Below are positions 52,729 to 64,000 of a stretch of DNA of 64,000 bases, piece after piece. The notes beneath the pieces were generated by a model, which was given only the letters and a program-made list of their open reading frames with translations, ran no database searches and was not told where the DNA came from. Each line of letters starts with the position of its first letter. The first letter of the stretch is position 1. The stretch lies in sequence record PZ452608.1. One strand, written 5' to 3'. The position numbers and the translations under genes were made by a program. The DNA is from a phage.

Positions 52729-53193
52729 TTACTTTGGGTATACACTGTCAAGATAAATGTCAGCTTCCATTCTACGTCTGTTTTTCAGTCCGTTTGAAGT
52801 GACCTTCTTACCTTTGACTGTAACCTTGTTCCACCACTGCATAGCTTCTGCACAACCCACCTTATTACCAGCATTGTGGCGCTTGATAAATGTGGAATCC
52901 TGCATAGCTGTGATACCAATGTTGTATGTTTCACTTACAAGTGCGTCAAACTCATTCTGAGAAGTTGGAACATTGACGGCTTTGTTCACTGCTGCAACAA
53001 ACTTTTCAACATCTGCGAGAAGATACTGTTCAGCTTGTTCAGCGGTAATCTTCATACCCATCTTAACAGGTTTTCCGTCAATACGGATTGTCCCATACCC
53101 GATTGTTGGGATTCCGGCAGAATCTTCGTAAGCCTCTAACTCCAGACCTTCGAAGAACTTAATAGCATCTAAACCTTTTCTTGAGAGTTGCAT
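52729..53193 (-). CDS. endolysin, phage lysozyme (GH24-like)
   Basis: FEGLELEAYEDSAGIPTIGYGT catalytic-region pattern of T4/lambda-type lysozymes. Confidence 0.75.
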   Translation of the reverse strand: MQLSRKGLDAIKFFEGLELEAYEDSAGIPTIGYGTIRIDGKPVKMGMKITAEQAEQYLLADVEKFVAAVNKAVNVPTSQNEFDALVSETYNIGITAMQDSTFIKRHNAGNKVGCAEAMQWWNKVTVKGKKVTSNGLKNRRRMEADIYLDSVYPK

Positions 53194-54326
53194 TACGCCT
53201 CCCCTGCTGGGTTAACTGTAACTGTTGCTGCATTAGATGTTACAGAGCCACCTGCACCAGTAACTACACAGGTGTAGCTTCCTGCATCAGCAGCGGTCGC
53301 ACCTTCTTTGGTGTAAGTTGCAGTAGTTGCATCGAGGATGTCTTCCTCACCTTTCTTCCACTGGTAACCTGTCGCACCTGTTGCCACAACATTCAGCGTT
53401 AAGGTCTCACCTTCATTGATTTCTTGATTGGTTGGCTGTTGAGTAATTACTGGAAGTGCGTTCACAGTTACTACAGCAGCATTAGATGTCACTGCACCAC
53501 CCGCACCTGTTACAACGCAAGTATATGAGCCTGCATCTGCTGGCAGAGCACCAGACTTGCTATAGGTAGCATTTGTAGCTGAAGGAATGTCAGAGCCATC
53601 TTTCTTCCACTGGTAACCTGTCGCACCTGTTGCAGTCACTTCCAAGTTAATGCTTCCACCCTCATTGACAGTCTGACCAGAAGGCTGCTGTGTAATCACA
53701 GGCAGTGCATTAACAGCAACTGTTGCCGCATCTGAGGTAACACTTGTTCCAGCCTCTCCAGATACAACACAAGTGTATGAGCCAGCATCAGAAGGTACTA
53801 CAGACTGTTTTGTATAAGTTGCAGAGGTGGCACTAGGAATATCCTCTCCATCCTTTTTCCATTGATATCCAGTGGCATTCGTTGCAATAACACTTAGGGT
53901 AAGCGTACCACCTTCATTTACTGTTTGATTGGTTGGTTGCTGAGTGATTGCTGGTGGCTTGATAGCATCCTTCAACTTAGCATTCAACATTGAGAATGGT
54001 TTAACTCTTGCCAGCCATTCACAATAAATTGTGTCAACGTCTTTACCATTGATAATTGCATATTGTAAGTCCATGAAGAAGTCAGAAGTTCTCATTTGAG
54101 CACCAATGCTGTAAAGCAACTCATCACTAAATGGAACTTTGTAGTCTGGTTTGTAGTCAAACTCATCGACTTCTGCAATATCAGCTTCAGGCCAATACGA
54201 ACTGTAGGTAAGCGGTAAAATAGCCTCTTGATATGTTCTAAAATCATATCTCTTACCAGCCTTTACGTTTGCAATGAAGCCCTTCACAAACTCTTTGAAG
54301 TCTGGGTAAGTCTTTGCTTTAATCAT
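53193..54326 (-). CDS. Ig-like domain repeat protein
   Basis: Three tandem repeats of about 85 aa (ITQQP.NQTVNEGG.L.L.V.AT.ATGYQWKK.G.DI...ATY.K...AGSYTCVV.G); N-terminal 125 aa paralogous to the upstream gene product. Confidence 0.55.
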   Translation of the reverse strand: MIKAKTYPDFKEFVKGFIANVKAGKRYDFRTYQEAILPLTYSSYWPEADIAEVDEFDYKPDYKVPFSDELLYSIGAQMRTSDFFMDLQYAIINGKDVDTIYCEWLARVKPFSMLNAKLKDAIKPPAITQQPTNQTVNEGGTLTLSVIATNATGYQWKKDGEDIPSATSATYTKQSVVPSDAGSYTCVVSGEAGTSVTSDAATVAVNALPVITQQPSGQTVNEGGSINLEVTATGATGYQWKKDGSDIPSATNATYSKSGALPADAGSYTCVVTGAGGAVTSNAAVVTVNALPVITQQPTNQEINEGETLTLNVVATGATGYQWKKGEEDILDATTATYTKEGATAADAGSYTCVVTGAGGSVTSNAATVTVNPAGEA

Positions 54327-55332: not shown

Positions 55333-55559
55333 TTTTCAGTTCTCCTGCGATTTATAATTTTGCTGCAATAGAGAAACGAAGTAAACTCACTGGAAGAAAC
55401 CATTAAGTGTTGTTCACTAGATTGAGCCATTGCCCTGAAATACATTCCAGTCAAAGCATCATAGTGACTATTCTTTCCAATTGAGGTTATATAGCCATGA
55501 CTCTTTGCAGTTTGATATAAATCTATAATATCTGCGATTTCTAATTGGGAACTACACAT
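55326..55559 (-). CDS. hypothetical protein
   Basis: 77-aa ORF. Confidence 0.3.
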   Translation of the reverse strand: MCSSQLEIADIIDLYQTAKSHGYITSIGKNSHYDALTGMYFRAMAQSSEQHLMVSSSEFTSFLYCSKIINRRRTEKC

Positions 55560-55723
55560 AGATAATCCTCTTGTCTTCTGTAATTTTGAAAGAACAGGTA
55601 CAGACCAATTTCAGAGGATGAATAGTAGATTAACTCTACCCTTTTTGATTCCTTACAGTGATTGGTATTCTTACCTTTCTTCGGTTTATTTGATTTTCTC
55701 ATTAAGTCTCCTTTGTAGAACAA
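55541..55723 (-). CDS. hypothetical small basic protein
   Basis: 60-aa ORF, first of minus block; weak. Confidence 0.25.
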   Translation of the reverse strand: MFYKGDLMRKSNKPKKGKNTNHCKESKRVELIYYSSSEIGLYLFFQNYRRQEDYLCVVPN

Positions 55724-55801
55724 GGCAGACCTACAGCTTTAACTAAGATGGTACAGTAATCCATACAACAAGTCAAGAACTATTGCAAGTTAAAAAAGTT
55801 G

Positions 55802-55840
55802 TTGACAAAGTACTTGACAAGGTGTAGGCTTATAAATACT
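55802..55840 (+). promoter_or_regulatory. tandem TTGACA promoter module (paralog of 9796-9830)
   Basis: GTTGACAAAGTACTTGACAAGGTGTAGGCTTATAAAT. Confidence 0.45.
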
Positions 55841-55951
55841 TAGAAGATAACTTAAAAGGTTCCTCTAAAAAGGCTATTTAAACAGATATCTTTCTGGATA
55901 TCTATCTTTTATCTTAAAAGCCTTTTAAGAGGTCTTATAAGAGGCATACCA

Positions 55952-56323
55952 ATGAAAAACAGAACAAACAAAGGCCAGTTTAAAAAAGGCCAATCTGGAA
56001 ACCCATCTGGAAGACCAAAAGGCTCTCGCAACAAAAGCTCACTTGTAAAAGCTCAACTGACCATTGATAATTCTGCTGAGTTTGCTGCAAAGTTGTTTGA
56101 AGCGATTGTTACAAGGGATGCTGCTAAGCTTGCAGAGTTCGGGTTAAACACAGACGATGTAACCATCAAGAGCATGATTGAAGTCGGTAAAACTATCATG
56201 ACCCACTCAGCAGGTGAGATGAAAGCAATTGCAGCAGACACTAAGAAGACTCCTGATAACGGCGGTCAGTCTCAGACAGATAACAAACCAACGTTCTCTG
56301 CTGTTGCAACCCTTAAAAAATAA
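55952..56323 (+). CDS. hypothetical protein with GNPSGRPKG motif
   Basis: 123 aa; N-terminal KGQSGNPSGRPKGSRN. Confidence 0.4.
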   Translation: MKNRTNKGQFKKGQSGNPSGRPKGSRNKSSLVKAQLTIDNSAEFAAKLFEAIVTRDAAKLAEFGLNTDDVTIKSMIEVGKTIMTHSAGEMKAIAADTKKTPDNGGQSQTDNKPTFSAVATLKK

Positions 56324-56404
56324 TTTTAAAAGATGTTGACAGACTCTATAAAGTTGCTCTAAAGTCTGTCACATCAAACAACAAATGAGAGAAGAGAGTA
56401 AAAT

Positions 56405-57820
56405 ATGAGCGAATTATTTAAACATGCGCACCTTCATGCAGGTCGAACTGAAAATGGTGCTGTAAACCATACTTCATCAATGTCTGCTCTTGTAGACTTT
56501 TACAAAGCTGCTGGTTCAAGCCGTAGCAATGTAGAAATCTTACCAGACCTGTTCTACAAAGCTTTGCGTGAGGATGTTGATGTTGCAGTTCGTATTTTAC
56601 TGCATATGCGAGATGTACGAGAAGGTATGGGTGAGCGTAAAGCCTTCAGAACTGTTTTACTTCAAGCGATTGAAGACAAAGTTTTAGAGTCTACGCAGGT
56701 TCTTCGCATTATGGATAAGATTGCAGAACTTGGTCGTTTTGATGACTTCAAAATCTTCGTAGGTACTCGTTTCGAGACAGATGCCTTCAAACACTTAGAA
56801 GCAGCATTACTAGACCCTGCAACAGCAGGTTTGGCGGCTAAGTGGTTACCACGAGTCAAACCACGTCATAAGCAGTTTGTAAAACGTTTCTGCAAGTTTG
56901 CCAACTTGAGTGAGAAAGAGTACCGCACACTGTTGTCTGCACTATCTGATACAGTTGAGCAAAAAATCTCTGCTAATGAGTTTGGTAAGATTGACTACAG
57001 TAAGATTCCTTCACTTGCTGCTGCACGTTACCAAAAACTGTTTAACCGTAAAGATGGAGAGCGTTACAAAGCTTACATCGAGTCCTTATCAAAAGGTGAG
57101 ACTAAGATTAACGCTGGTGCTGTTTACCCATACGATGTGATTAAATCTGTCAAGTATGGTAATGCAGATGTTGCTAATGAGCAGTGGAAAGCACTACCAA
57201 ACTGGATGGCAGAAGGTGAAAACATCTTGTGTATGTCTGATGTATCAAGTTCAATGTCTTGGGTGAATTTTGGCTCCATTACTGCTCTGGATATTGGTGT
57301 ATCACTTGCCTTGTATGTAGCAGAACGCAATACAGGTTGCTTTAAGAATGAGTTGATGGTTTATTCGACAAACCCTCACTTCATCGAACTGAGTGGTGAT
57401 TTACGAAACCGTCATCGTCAGGTGATGCGACACGTTGAATATGGCTCAACTAACTTACAAGCAGCTTTTGACCGCATTCTTGAAACAGGTAAAAGAAACA
57501 ACTTGACTCAGAAAGATATGCCAAGTAAGCTTATCATCTTCTCCGATATGGAGTTTAATCAGGTTGATGGAGCTAACGGTCGTACAAACTTTGAAGCAAT
57601 TCAGAGTAAGTACAAAAAAGCTGGATATGAGATGCCACAACTGGTATTCTGGTACTTAGCAAACCGTAATGGTACTTGCGAAGTATCTGTTAAGGATAAC
57701 GGTGTAGCAATGGTATCAGGGTTCTCTCCAGCCACTTTAAAAGCTCTGCTTGGTGGTGAGAAGTTTGACCCAATCAGTGTAATGCTCAAAGCAGTAATGA
57801 TTGACCGTTATATCTGGTAA
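56405..57820 (+). CDS. vWA (MIDAS) domain protein with N-terminal helical domain; possible Ro60/TROVE-like
   Basis: 471 aa; MIDAS-like DxSxS (CMSDVSSSMSW) and downstream IIFSDMEFN; long helical N-terminal region; TROVE assignment is inference only. Confidence 0.4.
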   Translation: MSELFKHAHLHAGRTENGAVNHTSSMSALVDFYKAAGSSRSNVEILPDLFYKALREDVDVAVRILLHMRDVREGMGERKAFRTVLLQAIEDKVLESTQVLRIMDKIAELGRFDDFKIFVGTRFETDAFKHLEAALLDPATAGLAAKWLPRVKPRHKQFVKRFCKFANLSEKEYRTLLSALSDTVEQKISANEFGKIDYSKIPSLAAARYQKLFNRKDGERYKAYIESLSKGETKINAGAVYPYDVIKSVKYGNADVANEQWKALPNWMAEGENILCMSDVSSSMSWVNFGSITALDIGVSLALYVAERNTGCFKNELMVYSTNPHFIELSGDLRNRHRQVMRHVEYGSTNLQAAFDRILETGKRNNLTQKDMPSKLIIFSDMEFNQVDGANGRTNFEAIQSKYKKAGYEMPQLVFWYLANRNGTCEVSVKDNGVAMVSGFSPATLKALLGGEKFDPISVMLKAVMIDRYIW

Positions 57821-57838
57821 AAAGTTTTAAAAAGGGTA

Positions 57839-57867
57839 TTGACAATGTGTTTAATACCCTTTAATAT
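57839..57867 (+). promoter_or_regulatory. sigma70-like promoter upstream of tRNA array
   Basis: TTGACA-17-TAATAT, overlapping AAGGGTA/TACCCTT inverted repeat. Confidence 0.5.
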
Positions 57868-57985
57868 GTTCTACATAGAAACGAAATGAGAGCTTTTCTA
57901 AGATGCTGAAAAATATTTTAAAAAAGTTCTTGACAACCACTAAAAAATAATGTTAAAGTGGTTACATAGAGTTTGAAAAGTTTAT

Positions 57986-58062
57986 CTCTGTTTAGCTCAG
58001 CTTGGTAGAGCGTTCCGTTTGGGGCGGTAAGGCCGGAGGTTCAAGTCCTCCAACAGAGACCA
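57986..58062 (+). tRNA. tRNA-Pro (anticodon TGG)
   Basis: Manual fold: 7-bp acceptor CTCTGTT/AACAGAG, GCTC/GAGC D-stem, loop TTTGGGG, T-arm GGAGG-TTCAAGT-CCTCC, CCA encoded. Confidence 0.75.
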
Positions 58063-58069
58063 AATTAAT

Positions 58070-58147
58070 GTTCCAGTAGACAAAATGGTAAAGTCACCAC
58101 TCTTTCAAAGTGGATATCTGAGGGTTCAAATCCCTTCTGGAACGCCA
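58070..58147 (+). tRNA. tRNA-Glu (anticodon TTC)
   Basis: Acceptor GTTCCAG/CTGGAAC, anticodon stem CCACT/AGTGG, loop CTTTCAA, CCA encoded. Confidence 0.7.
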
Positions 58148-58238
58148 GTTTTGACAGAAGACCAATTACAGCAAACTTAATCTACTCATCTGAAAGTTAA
58201 TCGGACAAAGAAGATATTTGGTCTGGTCATTAAGAATT

Positions 58239-58314
58239 GCGGGTATAGAGAAAGGGCGTCTCACATGTCTCATTAGCATGGTATCGGCAGGTTCGACTCC
58301 TGCACCCGCCTCCA
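58239..58314 (+). tRNA. tRNA with anticodon CAT (Met or Ile-lysidine type), atypical
   Basis: Acceptor GCGGGTA with one mismatch, D-stem GAGA/TCTC, anticodon stem CATGT/GCATG, loop CTCATTA (T at position 37), T-arm GCAGG-TTCGACT-CCTGC. Confidence 0.5.
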
Positions 58315-58398
58315 AATTTACAGAAGACCGTTTACAGCAATATTTATTAAATTTTTAGCGGAAAAAATTGAAAGATACGGTCTGGTAATACTAAACAT

Positions 58399-58475
58399 GG
58401 TTAGGAAGCACATAAGGTATGTGCGGTCGCCTGTTAAGCGAATGGCACAGGGTTCGAATCCCTGACTAACCGCCA
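58399..58475 (+). tRNA. tRNA-Asn (anticodon GTT)
   Basis: Acceptor GGTTAGG/ACTAACC (one mismatch), D-stem GCAC/GTGC, loop CTGTTAA, T-arm CAGGG-TTCGAAT-CCCTG. Confidence 0.65.
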
Positions 58476-58484
58476 AATTTAAAT

Positions 58485-58572
58485 GTGTCGTTATCCCGTA
58501 GATGGTAGCGGTGGGGACTGTAAATCCCTTGTCATTGAGACTCGGTAGGTTCGACTCCTACACGGCACACCA
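58485..58572 (+). tRNA. tRNA-Tyr (anticodon GTA), long variable arm
   Basis: 88 nt; acceptor GTGTCGT/ACGGCAC, loop CTGTAAA, T-arm GTAGG-TTCGACT-CCTAC. Confidence 0.7.
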
Positions 58573-58577
58573 ATAAA

Positions 58578-58655
58578 GGTTATGTAGTTTAATCTGGTTA
58601 AAATACTCCCCTGTCACGGGAGATGATGAGGGTTCGAATCCCTTCGTAACCGCCA
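58578..58655 (+). tRNA. tRNA-Asp (anticodon GTC)
   Basis: Acceptor GGTTATG/CGTAACC, anticodon stem CTCCC/GGGAG, loop CTGTCAC. Confidence 0.75.
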
Positions 58656-58838
58656 ATTTTGATAGGGCTATTTAGCCCCTCCCTTAAAGGGTTCTTACGA
58701 GTATTCTTTAAAGGAGCAGAAGACCAAATTCAGCAAGTTACTTAAAATTTCAAGCCAATTTAATTTTGAAAAATTTAAAACTTGGTCTGGCTCAACAAAT
58801 TTACAGAAGACCGTTTACAGCAAAACTTAAACAATCTA

Positions 58839-58912
58839 TTTCTCCGGTAAAGAAAAGGCGAAGGTTCGATTCCTTCACTCGGCAGATGTCGAGTTGGTGT
58901 AATGGTAGCACT
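58839..58912 (+). other. circularly permuted or rearranged tRNA-like gene (Thr-type anticodon GGT)
   Basis: 58839-58884 encodes anticodon arm (TTTCT-CCGGTAA-AGAAA), T-arm (GAAGG-TTCGATT-CCTTC), acceptor 3' strand ACTCGGC and discriminator; after a 3-nt linker, 58888-58912 encodes complementary acceptor 5' strand GTCGAGT plus D-arm (GTGT-AATGGTA-GCAC). Confidence 0.4.
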
Positions 58913-58943
58913 TAAGATGATAAACAACGGTCTGGTAATTACC

Positions 58944-59073
58944 TTTGTAGATAAGTTATTAAGCTTACTTGTGAGTATGCGACCACAAAGGGTGAATGGG
59001 TAAATTCTAGATTTAAACCCAAAAAGGCACATCGCTACAGACCTTAAGCAAGTCTGGGTAGCTTATCTACAAA
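58944..59073 (+). other. structured element: 12-bp perfect inverted repeat enclosing about 106 nt
   Basis: TTTGTAGATAAG (58944-58955) and CTTATCTACAAA (59062-59073); internal hairpin GGGTAAAT..ATTTAAACCC. Confidence 0.4.
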
Positions 59074-59084
59074 GATAATTTAAT

Positions 59085-59160
59085 GGAAGTGTAGCAGAAT
59101 GGTGATGCGGCAGACTTTTAATCTGACAGGCGATGGGTTCGAATCCCTCCACTTCTACCA
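59085..59160 (+). tRNA. tRNA-Lys (anticodon TTT)
   Basis: Acceptor GGAAGTG/CACTTCT (G-U at 1:72), loop CTTTTAA, T-loop TTCGAAT with weak T-stem, CCA encoded. Confidence 0.65.
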
Positions 59161-59164
59161 ATAT

Positions 59165-59241
59165 GGTTCAGTCGCAGATAAGGTAATGCAAGGGTCTCAT
59201 AAGCCCTATGAATGTGGGTTCGATTCCCATCTGAACCTCCA
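59165..59241 (+). tRNA. tRNA-Met (anticodon CAT)
   Basis: Acceptor GGTTCAG/CTGAACC, anticodon stem AGGGT/GCCCT, loop CTCATAA, T-arm TGGGTTCGATTCCCA. Confidence 0.7.
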
Positions 59242-59242
59242 A

Positions 59243-59318
59243 GCTGGTATAGTTAAGAAGGTTATAACACTCCCCTGATAAGGGAACATCGGTGGTTCGA
59301 TTCCACCTACCAGTACCA
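59243..59318 (+). tRNA. tRNA-Ile (anticodon GAT)
   Basis: Acceptor GCTGGTA/TACCAGT, D-stem GTTA/TAAC, loop CTGATAA, T-arm GGTGG-TTCGATT-CCACC. Confidence 0.75.
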
Positions 59319-59333
59319 ATTTCAATAAAGTTG

Positions 59334-59362
59334 TTGACATTGAGATGTGACTACTTTATAGT
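59334..59362 (+). promoter_or_regulatory. sigma70-like promoter inside tRNA array
   Basis: TTGACA-17-TATAGT. Confidence 0.5.
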
Positions 59363-59566
59363 AACCTTAGTTTTCGTTGCGTAGCGTCTATTTTGCAAAT
59401 TTAAAATAAATGCAAACGACAATGTTTTTCTGGCAGTAGCTTGATAGGCTAAACACCAGTGAGGTCTTCCAATCCCTCATCAAAGAATTTGGCGTACTAG
59501 CCCACGGTATGATTAATAAGGTGGGCATCTTTAAGGGCTTTCTAAGAGAGTCTTTAAAGATAATTA

Positions 59567-59648
59567 CGGGGCGTATCTCAGCGGTCTTCTAAACCGCCGT
59601 TAACCGAGTAAGTGGAGTATGCGGGTTCGAGTCCTGCCGCCTCGACCA
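59567..59648 (+). tRNA. atypical tRNA-like gene (possible anticodon TCT, Arg-type); no canonical D-arm
   Basis: Acceptor CGGGGCG/CGCCTCG, T-arm GCGGG-TTCGAGT-CCTGC, CCA; perfect stem-loop GCGGT-CTTCTAA-ACCGC only 7 nt after acceptor, plus 23-nt extra segment. Confidence 0.4.
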
Positions 59649-59797
59649 ATTTAGTTAGCAGATTACTTAGACGACCTAAACGGGTCTTCCTGTAGGGAGG
59701 TGGTCTGTATCTCATGTTTTCCAGAACATGTAAATAATCTGAGAAGGGGCTTTACAGTGTTGAGATAATACGGTAAGCTTTGAATTATAGTTTTAAT

Positions 59798-59868
59798 AGG
59801 GGTGAGCTATGGCAGCAATAGAGTCTCCAAAATTCTTGATTAGAGTTCGAATCTCTACACCCCTGCCA
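59798..59868 (+). tRNA. short tRNA, probable tRNA-Trp (anticodon CCA), reduced D-arm
   Basis: 71 nt; acceptor AGGGGTG/CACCCCT, anticodon arm AGAGT-CTCCAAA-ATTCT, T-arm TAGAG-TTCGAAT-CTCTA. Confidence 0.45.
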
Positions 59869-59882
59869 GAACAGGTGCTTGT

Positions 59883-60287
59883 ATGAAACTTTGTAGAAAA
59901 TGTTCTCAAGAAAAGCCTTTAAGCTGCTTTCATAAAAGAGGTAATGGCTATCAGTCTGCTTGTAAAGATTGTAAAGCTAAGTACTCAGCAAAGAGATACA
60001 AAGAAGACCCTACTTATAAAGCAAAAAGAAAAGTTAGGGCAAAATATGACAAAAAGAGGAACAGAGAGTTCCTTAGTAGATATAAAAAGTTTTGCAAATG
60101 CAGAATATGTGGCGAATCTGAGCCAGTAGCTTTGGATTTTCATCACTTAGACCCTAAAGAGAAAGATTTTGCTCCAAGCAATCTTAAAACTTACTCTAGA
60201 GGCACTATTAAGCGTGAAGTCCGTAAGTGTGTTGTGCTTTGTTCAAACTGTCATAGGAAAGTTCATGCAGGACTGTTAAGTATTTAA
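59883..60287 (+). CDS. HNH homing endonuclease
   Basis: 134 aa with CRKC, CKDC, CRIC cysteine pairs, HH motif (LDFHHLDP) and CSNCHRKVH; embedded in tRNA array. Confidence 0.6.
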   Translation: MKLCRKCSQEKPLSCFHKRGNGYQSACKDCKAKYSAKRYKEDPTYKAKRKVRAKYDKKRNREFLSRYKKFCKCRICGESEPVALDFHHLDPKEKDFAPSNLKTYSRGTIKREVRKCVVLCSNCHRKVHAGLLSI

Positions 60288-60300
60288 CAGTCTTATTAGG

Positions 60301-60388
60301 GGTAGGTAGCGGCTAATGGCAGCCAAACAGTCTTGAAAACTGTTGCCACTGTAGAGATACGGTGAGGGTTCGACTCCTTTACTTACCG
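60301..60388 (+). tRNA. tRNA-Ser (anticodon TGA), long variable arm; CCA not encoded
   Basis: Acceptor GGTAGGT/ACTTACC, anticodon arm ACAGT-CTTGAAA-ACTGT, 20-nt variable arm. Confidence 0.7.
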
Positions 60389-60544
60389 CCTAATAAGATT
60401 TACTCCGTCCATGCTTGTTCGCATTGTCGGTTTATCCCTCGTGTATTGTCGTACACTGTCAAAGCACCTAGTAGGTGTCACGGAGAAGAGATAATATCAA
60501 GCTCTCCAAAGGTTCTAGTCACCGGATTAAACAAGACTATGCAA

Positions 60545-60565
60545 AGACCTATTTAGGTCTTTTTA
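60545..60565 (+). terminator. intrinsic terminator inside tRNA array
   Basis: AGACC-TATTT-AGGTCT then TTTTT. Confidence 0.5.
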
Positions 60566-60644
60566 GAGGGCTTCTAAGGTTATTAGTCGCTTGTTGTGGA
60601 ACCTTGTTGCTCAGGTTCTTAGAAGTTCTCTAAAAAGATTTAAT

Positions 60645-60721
60645 GCACCTATAGCCCAACTGGTAGAGGCAGCAGACTTAGAATCTGCTCAGTGTGAGTT
60701 CGAATCTCTCTAGGTGTACCA
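60645..60721 (+). tRNA. tRNA with Leu-type anticodon TAG but short (type I) variable loop
   Basis: Acceptor GCACCTA/TAGGTGT, anticodon arm GCAGA-CTTAGAA-TCTGC, 5-nt variable loop, T-arm GTGAG-TTCGAAT-CTCTC. Confidence 0.55.
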
Positions 60722-60728
60722 AATTAAT

Positions 60729-60804
60729 GCAGGTGTAGCAAAATGGTTATGCGGCTGACTCTTAATCAGTAAGACGATGGGTTCAATTCCCTCCACCTGT
60801 ACCA
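60729..60804 (+). tRNA. tRNA-Lys (anticodon CTT)
   Basis: Acceptor GCAGGTG/CACCTGT, anticodon arm GCTGA-CTCTTAA-TCAGT, T-loop TTCAATT. Confidence 0.6.
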
Positions 60805-60810
60805 AACAAT

Positions 60811-60886
60811 GGGGTCATAGTTTATATGGTTAAAATTCGAGTTTTGCAAACTTGGGAACTGAGTTCAATTCTCAGTGACTCCACCA
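60811..60886 (+). tRNA. tRNA-Ala (anticodon TGC)
   Basis: Acceptor GGGGTCA/TGACTCC, anticodon arm CGAGT-TTTGCAA-ACTTG, T-arm CTGAG-TTCAATT-CTCAG. Confidence 0.7.
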
Positions 60887-60892
60887 ATTAGT

Positions 60893-60967
60893 GCATCCAT
60901 AGTTTAAACGGGAAAATTACAGTCTTCCAAACTGAGGTTGAGGGTTCGATTCCCTCTGGATGCTCCA
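60893..60967 (+). tRNA. tRNA-Gly (anticodon TCC)
   Basis: Acceptor GCATCCA/TGGATGC, loop CTTCCAA, T-arm GAGGG-TTCGATT-CCCTC. Confidence 0.7.
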
Positions 60968-60974
60968 AATTAAT

Positions 60975-61050
60975 GCTCCTATCGTATAATTGGTTATTAC
61001 GGTTGCCTTGTAAGCAACTTATCAGGGTTCGAGTCCTTGTGGGAGCACCA
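60975..61050 (+). tRNA. tRNA-Thr (anticodon TGT)
   Basis: Acceptor GCTCCTA/TGGGAGC, anticodon arm GTTGC-CTTGTAA-GCAAC, T-arm CAGGG-TTCGAGT-CCTTG. Confidence 0.75.
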
Positions 61051-61146
61051 ATTCGGAGGTCAAGTGAAAGACCGCTTTGAGTCAACTGAAGACCGTAACA
61101 AATTCCACGAAGTTGAGTTAGCGGCACAACTTCAGACCTCTTTCAT

Positions 61147-61221
61147 ACTCGCTTAGTTTATATGGTAAAACATCACCCTTACAAGATGAAGAAAAAGGTT
61201 CAAGTCCTTTAGTGAGTACCA
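61147..61221 (+). tRNA. tRNA-Val (anticodon TAC)
   Basis: Acceptor ACTCGCT/AGTGAGT, loop CTTACAA, T-arm AAAGG-TTCAAGT-CCTTT. Confidence 0.65.
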
Positions 61222-61222
61222 T

Positions 61223-61300
61223 GTTCCAGTATCCCAATTGGCAGAGGATGCAAGCTCAAACCTTGTATTAGTGACGGTTCGAATCCGTCTTGGAACACCA
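61223..61300 (+). tRNA. tRNA with Leu-type anticodon CAA but short (type I) variable loop
   Basis: Acceptor GTTCCAG/TTGGAAC, anticodon arm (AT)GCAAG-CTCAAAC-CTTGT(AT), T-arm GACGG-TTCGAAT-CCGTC. Confidence 0.55.
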
Positions 61301-61305
61301 ATTTT

Positions 61306-61381
61306 GCAGGATTAGTTCAAATGGAAAGAGCAACAGTCTACGAAGCTGTTAATAGGGGTTCGAATCCCTTATCCTGCGCCA
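61306..61381 (+). tRNA. tRNA-Arg (anticodon ACG)
   Basis: Acceptor GCAGGAT/ATCCTGC, anticodon arm ACAGT-CTACGAA-GCTGT, T-arm AGGGG-TTCGAAT-CCCTT. Confidence 0.7.
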
Positions 61382-61398
61382 GATAAAAAGGTGATACT

Positions 61399-61641
61399 AT
61401 GCAAACATTAACAGTAGTTGAACATGAAAACTGTGAGAGTATTGAGTTTGTCAGGGTCATTGGTGTTGAACACCACATTTTCTTAAAAGTGGGATACTTA
61501 TGTGACCCCACTAGAGTAGAAAGATTTATACGTGATTGTTTTGGTGGTAGACATCTGAAGAGTGTTATTTTTGAGACAGTTTTACCAGAAGGTTTAGAAA
61601 CGAATAATAACATTTACCTCCTTACGAGGATTAGACAATGA
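61399..61641 (+). CDS. hypothetical protein
   Basis: 80-aa ORF inside tRNA array, AAAGGTGA RBS. Confidence 0.4.
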   Translation: MQTLTVVEHENCESIEFVRVIGVEHHIFLKVGYLCDPTRVERFIRDCFGGRHLKSVIFETVLPEGLETNNNIYLLTRIRQ

Positions 61642-62195
61642 GATACTTAAAGTATGCTTCATGGATTTTCTTAGCTTTGTTAGAGCCATTTGCAGCAATC
61701 TTAGCAGTTATCTTAGCACCTTTTGTAGTTCCATTCTACAGTGAGAAGAAAGGACACTTGCCTTTCGGGTTCAGATGGATGGAGACTTATGACAACCCAA
61801 TTGATGGTGATGCAGGTCATATCAAACGATGGGCTAAGATTAGAAAGATTGGTAAGCTTGGTGTCTACATGCAGAGAGTTGGATGGCTCTGGAGAAACAA
61901 AGCTTATAACTTCTCTTACCATGTATTAGGAAGAGATGTAAAAGATGTTACTAAGTGGAAAGGTAATATCAACGTAAGTTCTAACCCTGAAGATAATCAG
62001 ACTGGTTATCTCCTAATGTGGAACAGTAATGCTTGGGGGTTATTCGCTTTTGTGCCGTCAATCAAAATCTTTGGTAAACAATTTTACTGGAGAATTTATA
62101 TTGGGTGGAAACTTAAAAGCGTTGTCCCAGAAGAAAGAGCATTTTCAAGGGAAAGAGTTATGTTGGCATTCTTTATTCATCCACTAAGAAAGTAA
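61638..62195 (+). CDS. membrane protein
   Basis: N-terminal TM (WIFLALLEPFAAILAVILAPFVVPF); 185 aa. Confidence 0.4.
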   Translation: MRYLKYASWIFLALLEPFAAILAVILAPFVVPFYSEKKGHLPFGFRWMETYDNPIDGDAGHIKRWAKIRKIGKLGVYMQRVGWLWRNKAYNFSYHVLGRDVKDVTKWKGNINVSSNPEDNQTGYLLMWNSNAWGLFAFVPSIKIFGKQFYWRIYIGWKLKSVVPEERAFSRERVMLAFFIHPLRK

Positions 62196-62203
62196 AGATT
62201 TAA

Positions 62204-62279
62204 AGGGGATTAGTTTACAAGGTTAAAACCTCGGTCTTTGAAATCGAAGAAGTTGGTTCAATTCCAACATCCCCCGCCA
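62204..62279 (+). tRNA. tRNA-Gln (anticodon TTG)
   Basis: Acceptor AGGGGAT/ATCCCCC (1:72 mismatch), anticodon arm TCGGT-CTTTGAA-ATCGA, T-arm GTTGG-TTCAATT-CCAAC. Confidence 0.65.
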
Positions 62280-62281
62280 AT

Positions 62282-62360
62282 GCTCCATTACTCCAATTGG
62301 CAGAGAGGCCAGACTTAAAATCTGTGTTATGTATCGGTTCGAATCCGATATGGAGTACCA
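62282..62360 (+). tRNA. tRNA with Leu-type anticodon TAA but short variable loop
   Basis: Acceptor GCTCCAT/ATGGAGT, anticodon arm CCAGA-CTTAAAA-TCTGT, T-arm ATCGG-TTCGAAT-CCGAT; D-arm paralogous to 61223-61300. Confidence 0.55.
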
Positions 62361-62365
62361 AATTT

Positions 62366-62441
62366 AGCGGTATAGCATAACTGGCAATGCAGCAGTCTCT
62401 GAAGCTGTCCTATTAAGGTTCAAATCCTTATGCCGCTGCCA
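62366..62441 (+). tRNA. tRNA-Gln (anticodon CTG)
   Basis: Acceptor AGCGGTA/TGCCGCT, D-stem GCAT/ATGC, loop CTCTGAA, T-arm TAAGG-TTCAAAT-CCTTA. Confidence 0.7.
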
Positions 62442-62472
62442 CTTCTAAGGATTCTTACGAGAGTCCTTAAAT

Positions 62473-62548
62473 GTGGCCTTATCATAAATGGTAATGACCC
62501 ATGCTGTGAACATGGTCTATACGGGTTCAAATCCCGTAGGTCACCCCA
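62473..62548 (+). tRNA. tRNA-His (anticodon GTG)
   Basis: Acceptor GTGGCCT/AGGTCAC, anticodon arm CCATG-CTGTGAA-CATGG, T-arm ACGGG-TTCAAAT-CCCGT. Confidence 0.75.
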
Positions 62549-62553
62549 ATTTA

Positions 62554-62630
62554 TAGTCCAAGTAGCTTATATGGTTAAAGCGCGTGTCTGAAAAACATGA
62601 GAAGAGGGTTCAAATCCCACTGGACTACCA
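62554..62630 (+). tRNA. tRNA-Phe (anticodon GAA)
   Basis: Acceptor TAGTCCA/TGGACTA, anticodon arm CGTGT-CTGAAAA-ACATG, T-loop TTCAAAT; exact 5' boundary uncertain by 1 nt. Confidence 0.65.
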
Positions 62631-62646
62631 ATTTCAAAGGTGCTTA

Positions 62647-63381
62647 ATGAAAGAGATGACAGAACAAGGTAAGGAGATTTTCAATCTCTTAAAAACCGGT
62701 AAAGGGTTTTCTAACCCCCTTATTACTGGTGCAGCAGTTCTCGGTGGAACCGTAGCTGCCTCTACATCACTTGTAAGCTCTATTAGCTCTGTATCAGACC
62801 CTACAGTAAAGGATAAGCTTGTTGCTGCTGGACTTACAACAGTTCTGCTTAACAGCTTTACCACGAGTCTGACAAGCACTACATCAACTACCAAAACACT
62901 AACAGATTACGGTCAAAAGTCCATTGATGAGTTTTCATCACGTATGCAGGTAGCAAAAGGTTACTCAAATGTTATGGGTGCAGCAGGTGAACAAGTTGGC
63001 TGTACACCATTTAGTGGTATTATGGGTGTTGCTACAGAGTATGGTCAAAAAGCTATTGATACGATTAACAGTGCACTAGATAGTGTTAATGGTGTGTTAA
63101 GTGACTTACAAGATGCTATTGACAAAGGTCTTGATACTATTTCTGATTTAGCTGAGCAAGCTGTTAGTAAGATTAATGAAGGTATTTCAAAAATTACAGC
63201 TTATGCAGATGAAGTTGTGCAGATGATTGAAGAAGAAGCTGCTCTTATTGCAGAGTACCTTAAAACGAATATCAATGGGTTCTTAGCAGGTATCTTACCA
63301 GACTGGTTTGATGATGCTTGTAAAACTGGTGTAATTGACACTATTGCAACACCAGAAATGAAGAACGCATTACAGAAATAA
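62647..63381 (+). CDS. hypothetical Ser/Thr-rich protein
   Basis: Track ORF starts inside tRNA-Phe; start moved to first ATG after the tRNA (MKEMTEQGK). Confidence 0.4.
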   Translation: MKEMTEQGKEIFNLLKTGKGFSNPLITGAAVLGGTVAASTSLVSSISSVSDPTVKDKLVAAGLTTVLLNSFTTSLTSTTSTTKTLTDYGQKSIDEFSSRMQVAKGYSNVMGAAGEQVGCTPFSGIMGVATEYGQKAIDTINSALDSVNGVLSDLQDAIDKGLDTISDLAEQAVSKINEGISKITAYADEVVQMIEEEAALIAEYLKTNINGFLAGILPDWFDDACKTGVIDTIATPEMKNALQK

Positions 63382-63383
63382 AT

Positions 63384-63476
63384 GGAAGATTAACCCTAAA
63401 AGGTAAGGGAGCAGTTTGCTAAACTGCCAGTAGCTGAGAAATCGGTGTACCAGTTCAAGTCTGGTATCTTCCTCCA
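63384..63476 (+). tRNA. tRNA-Ser (anticodon GCT), long variable arm
   Basis: 93 nt; acceptor GGAAGAT/ATCTTCC, anticodon arm GCAGT-TTGCTAA-ACTGC. Confidence 0.75.
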
Positions 63477-63480
63477 ATTT

Positions 63481-63556
63481 GAATCCGTGACAGAAACGGC
63501 TATGTGCCTGTCTGCAAAACAGGTTTATAAGGGTTCGAGTCCCTTCGGATTCTCCA
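63481..63556 (+). tRNA. tRNA-Cys (anticodon GCA)
   Basis: Acceptor GAATCCG/CGGATTC, anticodon arm CCTGT-CTGCAAA-ACAGG, T-arm AAGGG-TTCGAGT-CCCTT. Confidence 0.75.
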
Positions 63557-63593
63557 AGTTATTTTACTCTCTCTCAATTAAAATAATAATAAT

Positions 63594-63663
63594 GCCCTGC
63601 TATAAGTATTCTTCCTTTCGCTACCGAAGAGTATTTTTAGACAGGGCTTTTTTACAGAGTTAT
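63594..63663 (+). terminator. compound terminator after tRNA array
   Basis: GCCCTGC...ACAGGGC enclosing inner hairpin, then TTTTTT. Confidence 0.45.
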
Positions 63664-63728
63664 ACTTTATAGGAAGACTTATACAGTATGTCTCTGACGT
63701 ACATTGTGGTTTCTCCTTGACGGTCTCT

Positions 63729-63752
63729 GTGCCGTCTTTTTTAAGGGGAAAC
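63729..63752 (+). terminator. intrinsic terminator
   Basis: GACGG-TCTCTGTG-CCGTC then TTTTTT. Confidence 0.55.
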
Positions 63753-63778
63753 ATGGTTAACTATTTGGAGAAAACATA

Positions 63779-63979
63779 ATGAGCGAGACCGTTTATAAAG
63801 AACTTTATGAAGCTAATAAAAAGCTAGAATTTATGCAGAATACTATCATGGCAATTGCAGACAGATTGTCTGTAGCAACAGGTATTGATATTAAAGAAGC
63901 ATCTATGGATGCACTTCTTGATGCTGTTGATGCAAAGTTCGAAGTTAAGAAAGAAGAGACTGCTACAGACTCTGAATAA
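63779..63979 (+). CDS. hypothetical acidic protein
   Basis: 66 aa, GGAG RBS. Confidence 0.4.
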   Translation: MSETVYKELYEANKKLEFMQNTIMAIADRLSVATGIDIKEASMDALLDAVDAKFEVKKEETATDSE

Positions 63980-64000
63980 TTCTATTTGCGGAGGTGCTTA

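What the first reader, a model, noticed from the sequence alone, without database searches (positions are those of the whole stretch)
56405..59870. vWA (MIDAS) protein directly upstream of a tRNA array that contains tRNA-like RNAs with non-canonical cores
Seen in sequence: a 471-aa protein has a long helical N-terminal region followed by a vWA-type MIDAS motif (DVSSSMS). The array that follows contains elements with perfect acceptor and T-arms but abnormal cores (59567-59648 lacks a D-arm and has a 23-nt extra segment; 59798-59868 has a reduced D-arm; 58839-58912 is permuted) and a 12-bp stem enclosing about 106 nt (58944-59073). Established knowledge: Ro60/Rsr proteins combine a helical TROVE ring with a vWA MIDAS domain and bind Y RNAs, which in bacteria and some phages are encoded next to the protein and include tRNA-mimicking modules. 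Inference: this could be a phage Ro60-like RNP module with tRNA-like partner RNAs. The TROVE assignment is not demonstrated; the protein could be another vWA family.
Basis: inference. Interest (0 to 1): 0.55.

Follow-up and report, generated by a model that had tools for sequence, protein, structure and literature searches.

The report
Phage Ro60-like protein with Y-like RNAs
A Felix-O1-type phage encodes a distant relative of the RNA-binding Ro60 ring protein, and hidden between the tRNA genes just downstream are four copies of a previously undescribed small RNA that travels with this protein family in well over a hundred phages and closely resembles the orphan 'Class I' RNAs of social amoebae.

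Summary

The new result is the RNA partner. It is not an annotated tRNA. It is four unannotated inter-tRNA modules: 58156-58230, 58322-58389, 58718-58794 and 58805-58939. Each has AAG, a 7-bp terminal stem, a UUACAGCAA motif, a variable insert, the stem complement and CUG.

- A covariance model finds 106 such RNAs in 61 of 77 DUF2828 loci, all on the gene strand and mostly abutting the gene.
- It finds 41 more in an independent genome set.
- In 846 kb of control DNA it finds two, both beside the only DUF2828 gene there.
- The stem is 98.5% paired, and all seven pairs show compensatory changes.

The best Rfam match, below threshold, is the Dictyostelium Class I RNA. The other flagged elements are odd tRNAs or lineage-specific structures. 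Protein-RNA binding is inferred, not shown.

The parts
56336..56365 (+). sigma-70-like promoter (TTGACA-18-TAAAGT) upstream of the Ro60-like gene
   Evidence: Consensus scan, 10 of 12 positions match. This is a consensus match only; function is not shown.
56405..57820 (+). Ro60-like protein (wV8 gp47; orthologue of Bas63 gp130). It has an N-terminal helical TROVE-like ring region (about residues 1-265) and a vWA/MIDAS domain (about residues 270-455).
58156..58230 (+). Y-like / Class-I-like RNA module M1, short form, between tRNA-Glu and tRNA-Met. Stem 58159-58165 / 58218-58224; motif UUACAGCAA 58166-58174.
   Evidence: Model R1 27.2 bits with filters off. Model R2 30.4 bits, E 0.0025. Repeat families D14 and D15.
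58322..58389 (+). Module M2, short form, between tRNA-Met and tRNA-Asn. Stem 58325-58331 / 58377-58383; motif 58332-58340.
   Evidence: R1 32.4 bits. R2 36.8 bits, E 9e-5.
58718..58794 (+). Module M3, short form. Stem 58721-58727 / 58782-58788; motif AUUCAGCAA 58728-58736.
   Evidence: R1 27.3 bits. R2 31.6 bits. Weak Rfam Dicty_Class_I_RNA match of 14.9 bits.
58805..58939 (+). Module M4, long form, with a YrlA-type tRNA-like insert. Stem 58808-58814 / 58927-58933; motif 58815-58823; connecting helix CUUAA/UUAAG 58826-58830 / 58912-58916.
   Evidence: R1 87.9 bits. R2 40.3 bits. The minimum-energy fold reproduces the five-helix layout.
58839..58855 (+). M4 V hairpin (UUUCU / CCGGUAA / AGAAA). 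It sits in the variable-arm position of the tRNA-like domain.
   Evidence: Folds. The Rfam tRNA model aligns it as an anticodon-type arm at 22 bits, below threshold.
58860..58876 (+). M4 T arm (GAAGG UUCGAUU CCUUC)
   Evidence: Read from the sequence. T-arm scan outside the ARAGORN tRNAs. T-arm pairs are compensatory across loci.
58877..58894 (+). M4 closed acceptor-like hairpin (ACUCGGC AGAU GUCGAGU)
   Evidence: Parse of 12 diverse family members. Each has a 6-8 bp hairpin of different sequence directly after the T arm.
58895..58911 (+). M4 U8-G9 linker and D arm (GUGU AAUGGUA GCAC, with a GG in the loop)
   Evidence: The order T - closed acceptor - D equals the YrlA layout described in PMC4201824.

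Best explanation
gp47 is a highly divergent member of the Ro60 structural class: a TROVE-like helical ring closed by a vWA/MIDAS domain. The four modules M1-M4 are its cognate Y-RNA-like non-coding RNAs.

The modules are transcribed with the tRNA array from the promoters at 57839 and 57930, and are probably released by the tRNA-processing nucleases. Each RNA offers the same protein-binding handle: AAG, a 7-bp terminal stem, a single-stranded U-W-C-A-G-C-A-A and, 3' of the stem, an invariant G. Each also carries a different insert, as Y RNAs do. M4's insert is a tRNA mimic with T arm, closed acceptor and D arm, like bacterial YrlA. It would recruit a tRNA-recognising host or phage factor.

By analogy with Ro60/Rsr-Y RNA particles, the RNP would bind, gate or tether enzymes acting on structured or damaged RNAs during infection. 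In the 98%-identical Bas63 orthologue, the protein is needed to overcome the host Ppl defence system.

**Shown:** the fold of the model; the existence, conservation and covariation of the RNA family; its genomic linkage to the gene.

**Inferred:** direct binding, RNA processing, and the cellular target.
For: **Protein**

- Foldseek: TM-score 0.59-0.66 to Ro60, against 0.21-0.26 for vWA-only hits.
- The MIDAS residues are invariant.

**RNA family**

- Model R1 was built from 15 copies. It finds 130 hits in 77 sources that encode a gp47 homologue, all on the gene strand.
- Core model R2 finds 106 hits at E<=0.01 in 61 of 77 sources. The nearest copy lies within 60 nt of the gene in 34 sources and within 500 nt in 52. 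There are 1-4 copies per locus.
- In 846 kb of control viral DNA, R2 finds 2 hits. Both lie in the only control contig that encodes a DUF2828 homologue, on its strand.
- An independent set of 80 loci from GTDB genomes gives 41 hits, all on the gene strand and mostly abutting the gene.
- The terminal stem is 98.5% paired in 99 distinct sequences. All 7 pairs show compensatory changes. Slid controls give 26-45% pairing.
- C14, G16, C17 and the G after the stem are invariant in 99 of 99 sequences.
- All four window modules are detected, and nothing else in the 64 kb.
- The T arm - closed hairpin - D arm order recurs in 12 diverse members and matches YrlA.

**Precedent and genetics**

- Bacterial and phage Ro60 genes have Y RNAs within 4 kb on the same strand (PMC4201824; PMC12135203).
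- Bas63 gp130 counters Ppl (bioRxiv 10.1101/2024.10.10.617714). Bas63 carries the same four modules.
- In a few lineages the gene sits between an Rnl1-type RNA ligase and a metallophosphoesterase, with the RNA directly after it.
Against: - No binding, expression or processing data exist for these RNAs.
- Sequence methods alone do not place the protein in Ro60/TROVE. Pfam gives two DUFs. A profile of the family against PDB sequences reaches Ro60 only at E 0.76-1.3.
- The canonical Ro-binding motif (GNCGAA / GGUCCGA in a bulged helix) is absent, and no Rfam Y RNA or YrlA family appears at E<=10.
- 16 of 77 loci show no RNA at E<=0.01, including Vibrio phage phi-pp2.
- Folding energies of M1-M4 are not better than those of shuffled sequence, with z from -0.6 to -1.9.
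- Same-strand bias is partly expected in co-directional phage gene blocks.
- RNA-repair neighbours are rare, in 2-4 of 80 loci.
Confidence: 0.65

Rival explanations
1. The modules are cis-acting elements of the transcript rather than free partner RNAs. They could be processing or stability signals for the tRNA operon, or leader/trailer operators through which the protein (or something else) regulates its own mRNA.
For: In most loci the nearest copy lies within 60 nt of the coding sequence, upstream or downstream. That position also fits a 5' or 3' UTR element. In the window the modules sit exactly in the inter-tRNA spacers. No expression data show separate RNA species.
Against: Copies also lie 0.5-3 kb from the gene and occur in tandem sets of 2-4 with different inserts. 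They are found next to the gene in loci with no tRNA at all, such as L009, L012, L017, L018, L020 and L025, so they are not tRNA-processing spacers. The inserts include complete tRNA-like bodies, which are hard to explain for an operator. The closest known look-alikes, the Dictyostelium Class I RNAs, are abundant free 42-65 nt RNAs whose ends are exactly the conserved AAG and CUG.
Confidence: 0.15
2. The RNAs are functional but work without gp47. For example, they could be tRNA-mimic or hairpin decoys for host nucleases or other host proteins, with the linkage reflecting only co-regulation in an 'RNA toolkit' region of the genome.
For: The family often lies near tRNA arrays, which occur in about 45% of loci, and sometimes near tmRNA genes. 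Dictyostelium Class I RNA DdR-21 binds an RRM protein, Rnp1A/CIBP, directly.
Against: The linkage is to the gene, not to tRNAs. It holds across homologues only 33-47% identical to gp47, in two independent collections. The only control hits sit beside the only control DUF2828 gene. The fold class of the protein is one whose known members all bind exactly this kind of stem-plus-loop RNA.
Confidence: 0.1
3. The Y RNAs of this protein are among the annotated or atypical tRNA genes (59567-59648 and 59798-59868), as the first reader and the Bas63 preprint suggested, rather than the spacer modules.
For: Both elements have abnormal cores. The anticodon stem of 59567-59648 shows a compensatory change in sister phages, so it is under selection.
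Against: Neither carries the conserved frame. 59567-59648 sits where L002, L005 and Bas63 have a canonical tRNA-Arg(UCU), and it keeps the same anticodon and a CCA end, so it looks like a variant tRNA. Many DUF2828 loci have no tRNA-like gene nearby but do have the frame RNA.
Confidence: 0.05
4. The modules are decayed tRNA fragments or repeats left by recombination or homing-endonuclease activity in the tRNA array, and have no function.
For: The tRNA array is mosaic between sister phages and holds an HNH endonuclease gene at 59883-60287. The modules are AT-rich, and their folding energy is unremarkable.
Against: The frame is conserved across loci whose proteins are only 33-47% identical to gp47, with compensatory changes in all seven stem pairs and invariant motif positions. 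It occurs in loci without tRNAs.
Confidence: 0.03

Closest known systems
Ro60/Rsr with Y RNAs, in particular bacterial YrlA (Chen et al. 2014, PMC4201824)
   Same: - Ring-plus-vWA fold of the protein model.
- RNA genes within 4 kb on the same strand, often several per locus.
- RNA built as a 5'/3' terminal stem carrying a conserved motif next to the 5' strand, plus a variable loop.
- One RNA per locus often carries a tRNA-like domain in the order V - T arm - closed acceptor stem-loop - D arm.
   Different: - The protein is not detected by Pfam TROVE, and sequence similarity to Ro60 is below threshold.
- The motif is U-W-C-A-G-C-A-A with AAG and CUG flanks, not GNCGAA(N)G. There is no bulged helix.
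- No Rfam Y RNA or YrlA family appears at E<=10.
- Some members carry a non-permuted D - anticodon - T body instead.
Bas63 gp130 (PhageMaP preprint, bioRxiv 10.1101/2024.10.10.617714)
   Different: The preprint guessed that some annotated tRNA genes are the Y RNAs. Here the candidate partners are four unannotated spacer RNAs, overlapped in the record by hypothetical minus-strand ORFs. They belong to a family found across the whole protein family.
Thermus phage phiLo Ro60 with Yrl1/Yrl2 (PMC12135203; PDB 9KOP, 9L5Y)
   Different: The phiLo protein is annotated as a TROVE-domain protein, and its RNAs carry the canonical CGAA motif in a stem-bulge-stem. The RNA family described here has a different motif.
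Class I RNAs of dictyostelid social amoebae (Rfam RF01414; Kjellin et al. 2021, PMC7919456)
   Same: - About 55-75 nt in the short forms.
- A short terminal stem conserved in structure but not in sequence.
- A conserved motif directly 3' of the 5' stem strand: CCUUACAGCAA in Dictyostelium, N-U-W-C-A-G-C-A-A here, with an exact UUACAGCAA in three of the four window copies (M1, M2 and M4; M3 has AUUCAGCAA).
- Conserved AAG start and CUG(U) end.
- RF01414 is the best-scoring Rfam family on the short phage RNAs at four places, and it hits exactly the elements beside the gene.
   Different: - Scores are 14.9-25.4 bits against a gathering score of 41.5.
- The helix-to-motif spacing differs by one nucleotide.
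- Class I RNAs are reported as unique to Dictyostelia and are transcribed from DUSE promoters.
- Their known direct binder is an RRM protein.
- Whether Dictyostelium has a DUF2828 protein could not be tested here.

Membership tests
Ro60 / TROVE protein family | Significant match to the Pfam TROVE domain or sequence homology to Ro60 | tested here: not met
   Pfam at E<=0.1 reports only DUF2828 and DUF7788. phmmer against PDB sequences finds no Ro60. A family profile against PDB sequences reaches Ro60 at E 0.76 and 1.3 only, in the vWA region.
Ro60 / TROVE protein family | Helical-repeat ring plus C-terminal vWA domain (overall Ro60 fold) | tested here: met
Ro60 / TROVE protein family | MIDAS motif (DxSxS ... 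T ... D) in the vWA domain | tested here: met
   D279, S281, S283, T349 and D381 are invariant in a 44-sequence alignment whose members share 40-89% identity with gp47.
Ro60 / TROVE protein family | Binds Y RNA on the outer ring surface and misfolded RNA in the central hole | not testable with these tools
   Needs biochemistry or an experimental structure.
YrlA-type bacterial Y RNA | Encoded within about 4 kb of the Ro60-type gene on the same strand | tested here: met
   M1-M4 lie 336-985 nt downstream of the stop codon on the + strand. Family-wide, the nearest copy is within 500 nt in 52 of 61 loci.
YrlA-type bacterial Y RNA | tRNA-like domain in the order V - T arm - closed acceptor stem-loop - D arm, held by a 5'/3' stem | tested here: met
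   Met for M4 (58839-58911) and for 11 other diverse members. Not met for M1-M3, which have no tRNA-like part.
YrlA-type bacterial Y RNA | GNCGAA(N0-1)G motif near the 5' end | tested here: not met
   The 5' conserved sequence is AAG, then the stem, then U-W-C-A-G-C-A-A. No GNCGAA is present in M1-M4.
YrlA-type bacterial Y RNA | Match to a curated Rfam Y RNA or YrlA model | tested here: not met
   No such family is listed at E<=10 over 58650-59100, at E<=1 over 55500-64000, or at gathering score in 14 related loci.
Dictyostelium Class I RNA (RF01414) | Rfam gathering score of 41.5 bits | tested here: not met
   14.9 bits for window M3. 23.4, 24.4 and 25.4 bits for L062, L074 and L025. RF01414 is the best family on these elements, but all scores are below threshold.
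Dictyostelium Class I RNA (RF01414) | Short terminal stem conserved in structure only, a conserved motif next to the 5' stem strand, and conserved AAG start and CUG(U) end | tested here: met
   7-bp stem, 98.5% paired, all pairs compensatory. CAGCAA in 72 of 99 sequences, UUACAGCAA in 21 of 99, AAG in 59 of 99, CUG in 78 of 99, and the G after the stem in 99 of 99. Features of the amoeba RNAs are taken from PMC7919456. The true RNA ends in the phage are unknown.
Dictyostelium Class I RNA (RF01414) | Expressed as an abundant free RNA of 42-65 nt | not testable with these tools
   No transcriptome data are available here. Short forms are 55-77 nt by model boundaries.
tRNA (for the flagged element 59567-59648) | Cloverleaf recognised by tRNA models | tested here: inconclusive
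   Rfam tRNA scores 31.7 bits against a gathering score of 29. ARAGORN does not call it, even at a relaxed threshold. It has no D arm. The same slot holds a canonical tRNA-Arg(UCU) in L002, L005 and Bas63.

The most novel reading that the evidence does not exclude
The phage RNAs and the Class I RNAs of dictyostelid amoebae are one RNA family. That family is the cognate ligand of the DUF2828/DUF7788 branch of Ro60-like proteins, which Pfam also records in eukaryotes.

On this reading, Class I RNAs are not an amoeba-specific invention for multicellularity. They are the 'Y RNAs' of a second, so far unrecognised Ro-type RNP that is spread across thousands of phages and into eukaryotes.

The reading predicts that a Dictyostelium DUF2828 protein binds them. 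One candidate is DDB_G0281243, the protein of unknown function that was pulled down with DdR-21.
Probability: 0.3. Interest if true: 0.9.

Novelty: new variant of a known kind. Interest (0 to 1): 0.75.

Why it matters
Ro60-Y RNA particles are a classic RNA-surveillance system, and their phage versions are only starting to be studied.

- **Scale.** The DUF2828/DUF7788 family is very large: 8,989 clusters at 50% identity.
- **A concrete partner.** The protein family now has a defined, testable RNA partner and a covariance model to find it.
- **A testable phage result.** The observation that Bas63 gp130 defeats the Ppl defence system can now be examined at the RNA level. The RNAs can be deleted, their tRNA-like module swapped, and their interactors pulled down.
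- **Annotation.** Phage genome records currently place hypothetical minus-strand ORFs over these RNAs, so annotation can be corrected.
- **The amoeba link.** If the resemblance to Dictyostelium Class I RNAs reflects shared binding to DUF2828 proteins, an orphan eukaryotic RNA class gains a candidate protein partner and a function that can be tested directly.

Tried and rejected
1. **Rfam Y RNA and YrlA families.** Nothing was found at E<=10 in the window or at gathering score in 14 loci.
2. **tmRNA.** Weak hits at 59260-59444 (29.2 bits) and 59376-59565 (15.4 bits) are below the gathering score of 47. One overlaps tRNA-Ile, and ARAGORN finds no tmRNA. Rejected.
3. **Reverse test.** I scanned IMG/VR for TAAAG-N6-TTACAGCAA. 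Only one lay near a DUF2828 gene, so the test says nothing about the reverse association. I reused those contigs as a negative control for the models.
4. **Foldseek against AFDB.** I wanted it to find eukaryotic (Dictyostelium) DUF2828 proteins, but the library was not available. Literature and supplement searches for DDB_G0281243, DUF2828 and UCP015417 gave no domain information.
5. **The 58935-59084 stem element.** It occurs only in E. coli and Salmonella Felixounaviruses at 92% identity or more, so covariation cannot be tested. It lacks the frame.
6. **Folding energy as evidence for M1-M4.** The z-scores are not significant. The case rests on comparative data.
7. **RNA-repair neighbourhood.** An Rnl1 ligase and a metallophosphoesterase flank the gene in L204/L009 and L028, but in only 2-4 of 80 loci. 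I treat this as a hint, not a rule.
8. **Automatic stem finding by script.** It failed for several loci, so I set the boundaries by inspection and then verified them with the covariance models.

Full report
**Identity of the window.** The stretch 56405-59870 is 100% identical to E. coli O157 typing phages 8 and 11 and 99.9% identical to phage wV8. The window is therefore a Felixounavirus of the Felix O1 group. In the wV8 RefSeq record the ORF is gp47, named 'RNA-binding protein', and the tRNA array follows it.

**Check of the observation.**

- ORF 56405-57820 (+) encodes 471 aa, with DVSSSMS at residues 279-285.
- ARAGORN finds 26 tRNAs between 57986 and 63556, all on the + strand.
- 59567-59648 has an acceptor stem, an anticodon arm (UCU), a 23-nt extra segment, a T arm and CCA, but no D arm. 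Rfam's tRNA model scores it 31.7 bits against a gathering score of 29, while ARAGORN does not call it.
- 59798-59868 is called tRNA-Trp(CCA) with a reduced D arm.
- 58839-58912 is a T arm, then a closed acceptor-like hairpin, then a D arm.
- The long stem is really 22-nt arms at 58937-58958 and 59059-59080, 91% complementary. The element folds far better than shuffled sequence (z = -4.77).

**The protein.**

- Pfam gives DUF2828 (E 3.9e-29) and DUF7788 (E 1.7e-43), and no TROVE hit.
- PHROGs places it in phrog_850, 'RNA-binding protein'. NCBIfam and PDB sequence searches give nothing useful.
- The family is very large. A word-indexed search found 2,542 homologues. A full HMMER search found 8,989 cluster representatives at E<=1e-3.
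- In 44 homologues that share 40-89% identity with gp47, the MIDAS residues D279, S281, S283, T349 and D381 are invariant.
- An AlphaFold2 model built from that alignment is confident, with pLDDT 88.7 and pTM 0.88.
- In Foldseek against the PDB, the 12 best hits are all Ro60-type structures: Xenopus, human, Deinococcus Rsr and Thermus phage phiLo. Their TM-scores are 0.5-0.66. vWA-only hits have TM-scores of 0.21-0.26.
- Because 396 of 471 residues align, the N-terminal helical region is Ro-like as well as the vWA domain.
- By sequence alone the relationship is below threshold. A family profile against PDB sequences reaches Ro60 only at E 0.76-1.3.

**Prior art.** A 2024 preprint, PhageMaP (bioRxiv 10.1101/2024.10.10.617714), reports three things about Bas63 gp130. 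It is structurally similar to Ro60. It lies directly upstream of the tRNA genes. It is needed to counter the Ppl defence system. [quoted passage not shown] Bas63 is phage JohannRWettstein. Its bas63_0130 product is 98% identical to the window protein and sits in the same context. The protein-level reading is therefore already in the literature.

**The RNA frame in the window.** Four spacers in the tRNA array share a repeat, CAGAAGACCnnUUnCAGCAA, with a matching nnGGUCUGG downstream (families D14 and D15). The 'nn' positions co-vary between copies: AA/UU, GU/AC, AA/UU and GUU/AAC. In the predicted folds, each pair of motifs closes a hairpin. Its order is V hairpin, T arm, closed acceptor stem-loop, D arm. 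That is exactly the layout Chen et al. described for bacterial YrlA Y RNAs (PMC4201824).

**The same RNA in distant phages.** I fetched 80 viral contigs that encode homologues of gp47, most of them only 39-47% identical to it. I then looked for T arms outside ARAGORN-called tRNAs. Many loci had, on the gene strand, an RNA with the same layout:

- (A)AG;
- a 6-8 nt stem strand of arbitrary sequence;
- U-U/A-N-C-A/C-G-C-A-A;
- a V region, T arm, closed hairpin and D arm;
- an A-rich stretch;
- the exact complement of the stem strand;
- U-G-A-U-A or similar.

On 15 hand-delimited examples the terminal stem is 98% paired, and all seven pairs change on both sides. Slid controls give 34-46% pairing.

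**Covariance models and controls.**

- Model R1 was built from those 15 sequences. It found 130 matches in 77 sources, every one on the gene strand. About a third carry a T arm. The rest are 55-75 nt hairpins without a tRNA-like part.
- In the window, with filters off, R1 finds M4 (87.9 bits), M2 (32.4), M3 (27.3) and M1 (27.2). Everything below those is a partial match to a real tRNA.
- Core model R2 was built from 60 hits. It finds 106 matches at E<=0.01 in 61 of 77 sources, all on the gene strand.
- The nearest copy is within 60 nt of the gene in 34 sources, within 150 nt in 41 and within 500 nt in 52. There are 1-4 copies per locus.
- On that alignment, which holds 99 distinct sequences, the stem is 98.5% paired and all seven pairs are compensatory. 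Slid controls give 26-45% pairing.
- C14, G16, C17 and the G just after the stem are invariant. U12 is present in 96 sequences, A18 in 98 and G5 in 94.
- Negative control: in 846 kb of unrelated viral contigs, R2 finds two matches. Both are in L120, the only control contig with a DUF2828 homologue, and both are on its strand. R1 behaves the same way.
- Independent replication: 80 loci from GTDB genome assemblies, with homologues 33-42% identical to gp47, give 41 matches. All are on the gene strand, and most abut the gene.
- Bas63 has the same four modules. They are unannotated and overlapped by hypothetical minus-strand ORFs.

Many loci with the RNA have no tRNA at all. The linkage is therefore to the gene, not to tRNA arrays.

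**The inserts.** In 12 diverse members the T arm is followed at once by a 6-8 bp hairpin of unrelated sequence. Then come a UA or UG linker and a D arm with GG in its loop. In L030 and L067 the hairpin loop begins with NCCA. Two RNAs (L057:4731-4839 and L067:4755-4859) carry a non-permuted D - anticodon - T body inside the same frame. Others carry unrelated hairpins. The design, a constant handle with a variable insert, is the design of Y RNAs.

**Comparison with known RNA families.** No Rfam Y RNA or YrlA family appears, and the YrlA motif GNCGAA is absent. The best Rfam family on the short forms is Dicty_Class_I_RNA (RF01414):

- 14.9 bits on window M3;
- 23.4 bits on L062:3960-4017;
- 25.4 bits on L025:1535-1592 and 24.4 bits on L074:6438-6514.

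In the 61-kb multi-locus scan those three were the only RF01414 hits. Each fell exactly on the element beside the gene. All are below the gathering score of 41.5.

Kjellin et al. (PMC7919456) define Class I RNAs by these features: 42-65 nt long; a 6-bp terminal stem conserved in structure but not sequence; an 11-nt motif next to the 5' stem strand; a conserved AAG start and CUGU end. They state that the class is unique to Dictyostelia. Their sequences, for example DdR-21 GUUGACCUUACAGCAA...GUCAACUG and asu_can_4 GGUCGUCUUACAGCAA...GAAGACCUG, show the same layout as the phage RNAs, for example M2 AGAAGACCGUUUACAGCAA...ACGGUCUGG.

DdR-21 pulled down four proteins. One of them, DDB_G0281243, has no known function. 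I could not test whether it, or any Dictyostelium protein, belongs to DUF2828. The AFDB library was unavailable and the literature gave nothing. Papers on plants do mention DUF2828 proteins, so the family is not confined to phages.

**The other flagged elements.**

- 59567-59648 sits 324 nt after tRNA-Ile. That is exactly where L002, L005 and Bas63 have a canonical tRNA-Arg(UCU). It keeps the UCU anticodon and a CCA end. Its anticodon stem shows a compensatory change in L004 and L006. It is best read as an aberrant tRNA-Arg variant, not a member of the frame family.
- 59798-59868 is a tRNA-Trp-like gene next to an HNH endonuclease ORF.
- The 58935-59084 element is found only in E. coli and Salmonella Felixounaviruses at 92% identity or more. 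It remains unexplained.

**Mechanism.**

- Shown: a Ro60-type fold (as a model), an RNA family with strong covariation, and tight, specific, replicated genomic linkage between the two.
- From established knowledge: Ro60/Rsr proteins bind Y RNAs encoded beside them. The Y RNA stem binds the ring, and the loop tethers or gates effectors such as PNPase. A phage Ro60 with phage Y-like RNAs forms such a complex with host PNPase.
- Inferred: gp47 binds M1-M4 through the stem and the UNCAGCAA handle. The RNAs are cut out of the tRNA transcript. M4's tRNA mimic recruits a tRNA-recognising factor. The particle acts on host or phage RNA during infection, which would explain how gp130 defeats Ppl.

In a few lineages an Rnl1-type RNA ligase and a metallophosphoesterase flank the gene. 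That fits an RNA-repair or surveillance role, but it is rare.

**Verdict.** The protein part is already known. The RNA partner family, its extent and its resemblance to Dictyostelium Class I RNAs appear to be new: searches of the literature library available here found no description of it. The finding is a new variant of the Ro60-Y RNA kind.

Noticed in passing
window 59567-59648; L002:8070-8146; L082:3720-3796: A D-arm-less tRNA-Arg(UCU)-like element with a 23-nt extra segment occupies the slot where sister Felixounaviruses (L002, L005, Bas63) have a canonical tRNA-Arg(UCU) of unrelated acceptor sequence. Its anticodon stem shows a compensatory G-C to U-A change in L004 and L006.
   Followed up: partly
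window 58935-59084: A 150-nt element closed by a 22-nt stem folds much better than shuffled sequence (z -4.77). It is present only in E. coli and Salmonella Felixounaviruses at 92% identity or more. It contains a mini-hairpin, CAGAC-CUUAAGCAA-GUCUG, that echoes the frame motif. Its function is unknown. wV8 and Bas63 annotate minus-strand hypothetical ORFs over it.
   Followed up: partly
window 59334-59566: The strongest promoter-like site in the region (TTGACA-17-TATAGT, 11 of 12 positions) lies inside the tRNA array. It is followed by a structured stretch at 59430-59566 (z -3.26), which includes a 17-bp hairpin at 59527-59561. Only sub-threshold tmRNA-like Rfam hits fall here.
   Followed up: partly
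L064:8364-8687, L066:8696-9187, L074:7619-8092 (also L033:10822): Phage-encoded tmRNA genes, with Rfam scores of 71-108 bits, lie 1-2.5 kb downstream of the DUF2828 gene on the same strand in several unrelated contigs.
   Followed up: no
L204:4279-5391 and 7842-8555 (same as L009); L028: An Rnl1-type RNA ligase (PF09511) and a metallophosphoesterase flank the DUF2828 gene, with the frame RNA directly after the gene (L204:7445-7512). This arrangement is reminiscent of the Salmonella rsr-yrlBA-rtcBA RNA-repair operon. It is seen in only 2-4 of 80 loci.
   Followed up: partly
L057:4731-4839; L067:4755-4859: The same terminal-stem frame encloses a normally ordered tRNA body (D arm, anticodon arm, T arm) that lacks an acceptor stem. 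The frame stem takes the acceptor's place. This is a second kind of tRNA mimic in the family.
   Followed up: partly
L008:4273-4376, L010:3130-3238, L035:4731-4834, L042:4675-4779: A second RNA of the family in these loci carries a conserved insert, CCUUUCUGGAGGGGAAAGCAAAAACUCGCC, which is shared between otherwise different contigs.
   Followed up: no
window 59883-60287: An ORF with weak, sub-threshold Pfam HNH matches (E 0.006-0.013), annotated as an HNH endonuclease in wV8, sits inside the tRNA array next to the tRNA-Trp-like gene. It is absent from sister phage L002, so it is probably a homing endonuclease that contributes to the mosaic state of the array.
   Followed up: no
window 58775-59032 (-), 59099-59278 (+), 59388-59528 (-), 60888-61127 (-), 61338-61613 (-): Short ORFs annotated as hypothetical proteins in wV8 and Bas63 overlap tRNA genes or the new RNAs, mostly on the opposite strand. 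They are probably annotation artefacts.
   Followed up: no
window 53193-54326 (-): The upstream protein, annotated as a tail protein in wV8, contains three tandem repeats of about 85 aa (TQQPxxQxVNEG...ATGYQWKK...AGSYTCVV) that look like Ig-type domains.
   Followed up: no
L053:2982-3017: A near-threshold match to the Rfam DUF805b RNA motif (30.1 bits, gathering score 35.6) lies about 90 nt downstream of a frame RNA in the same intergenic region.
   Followed up: no
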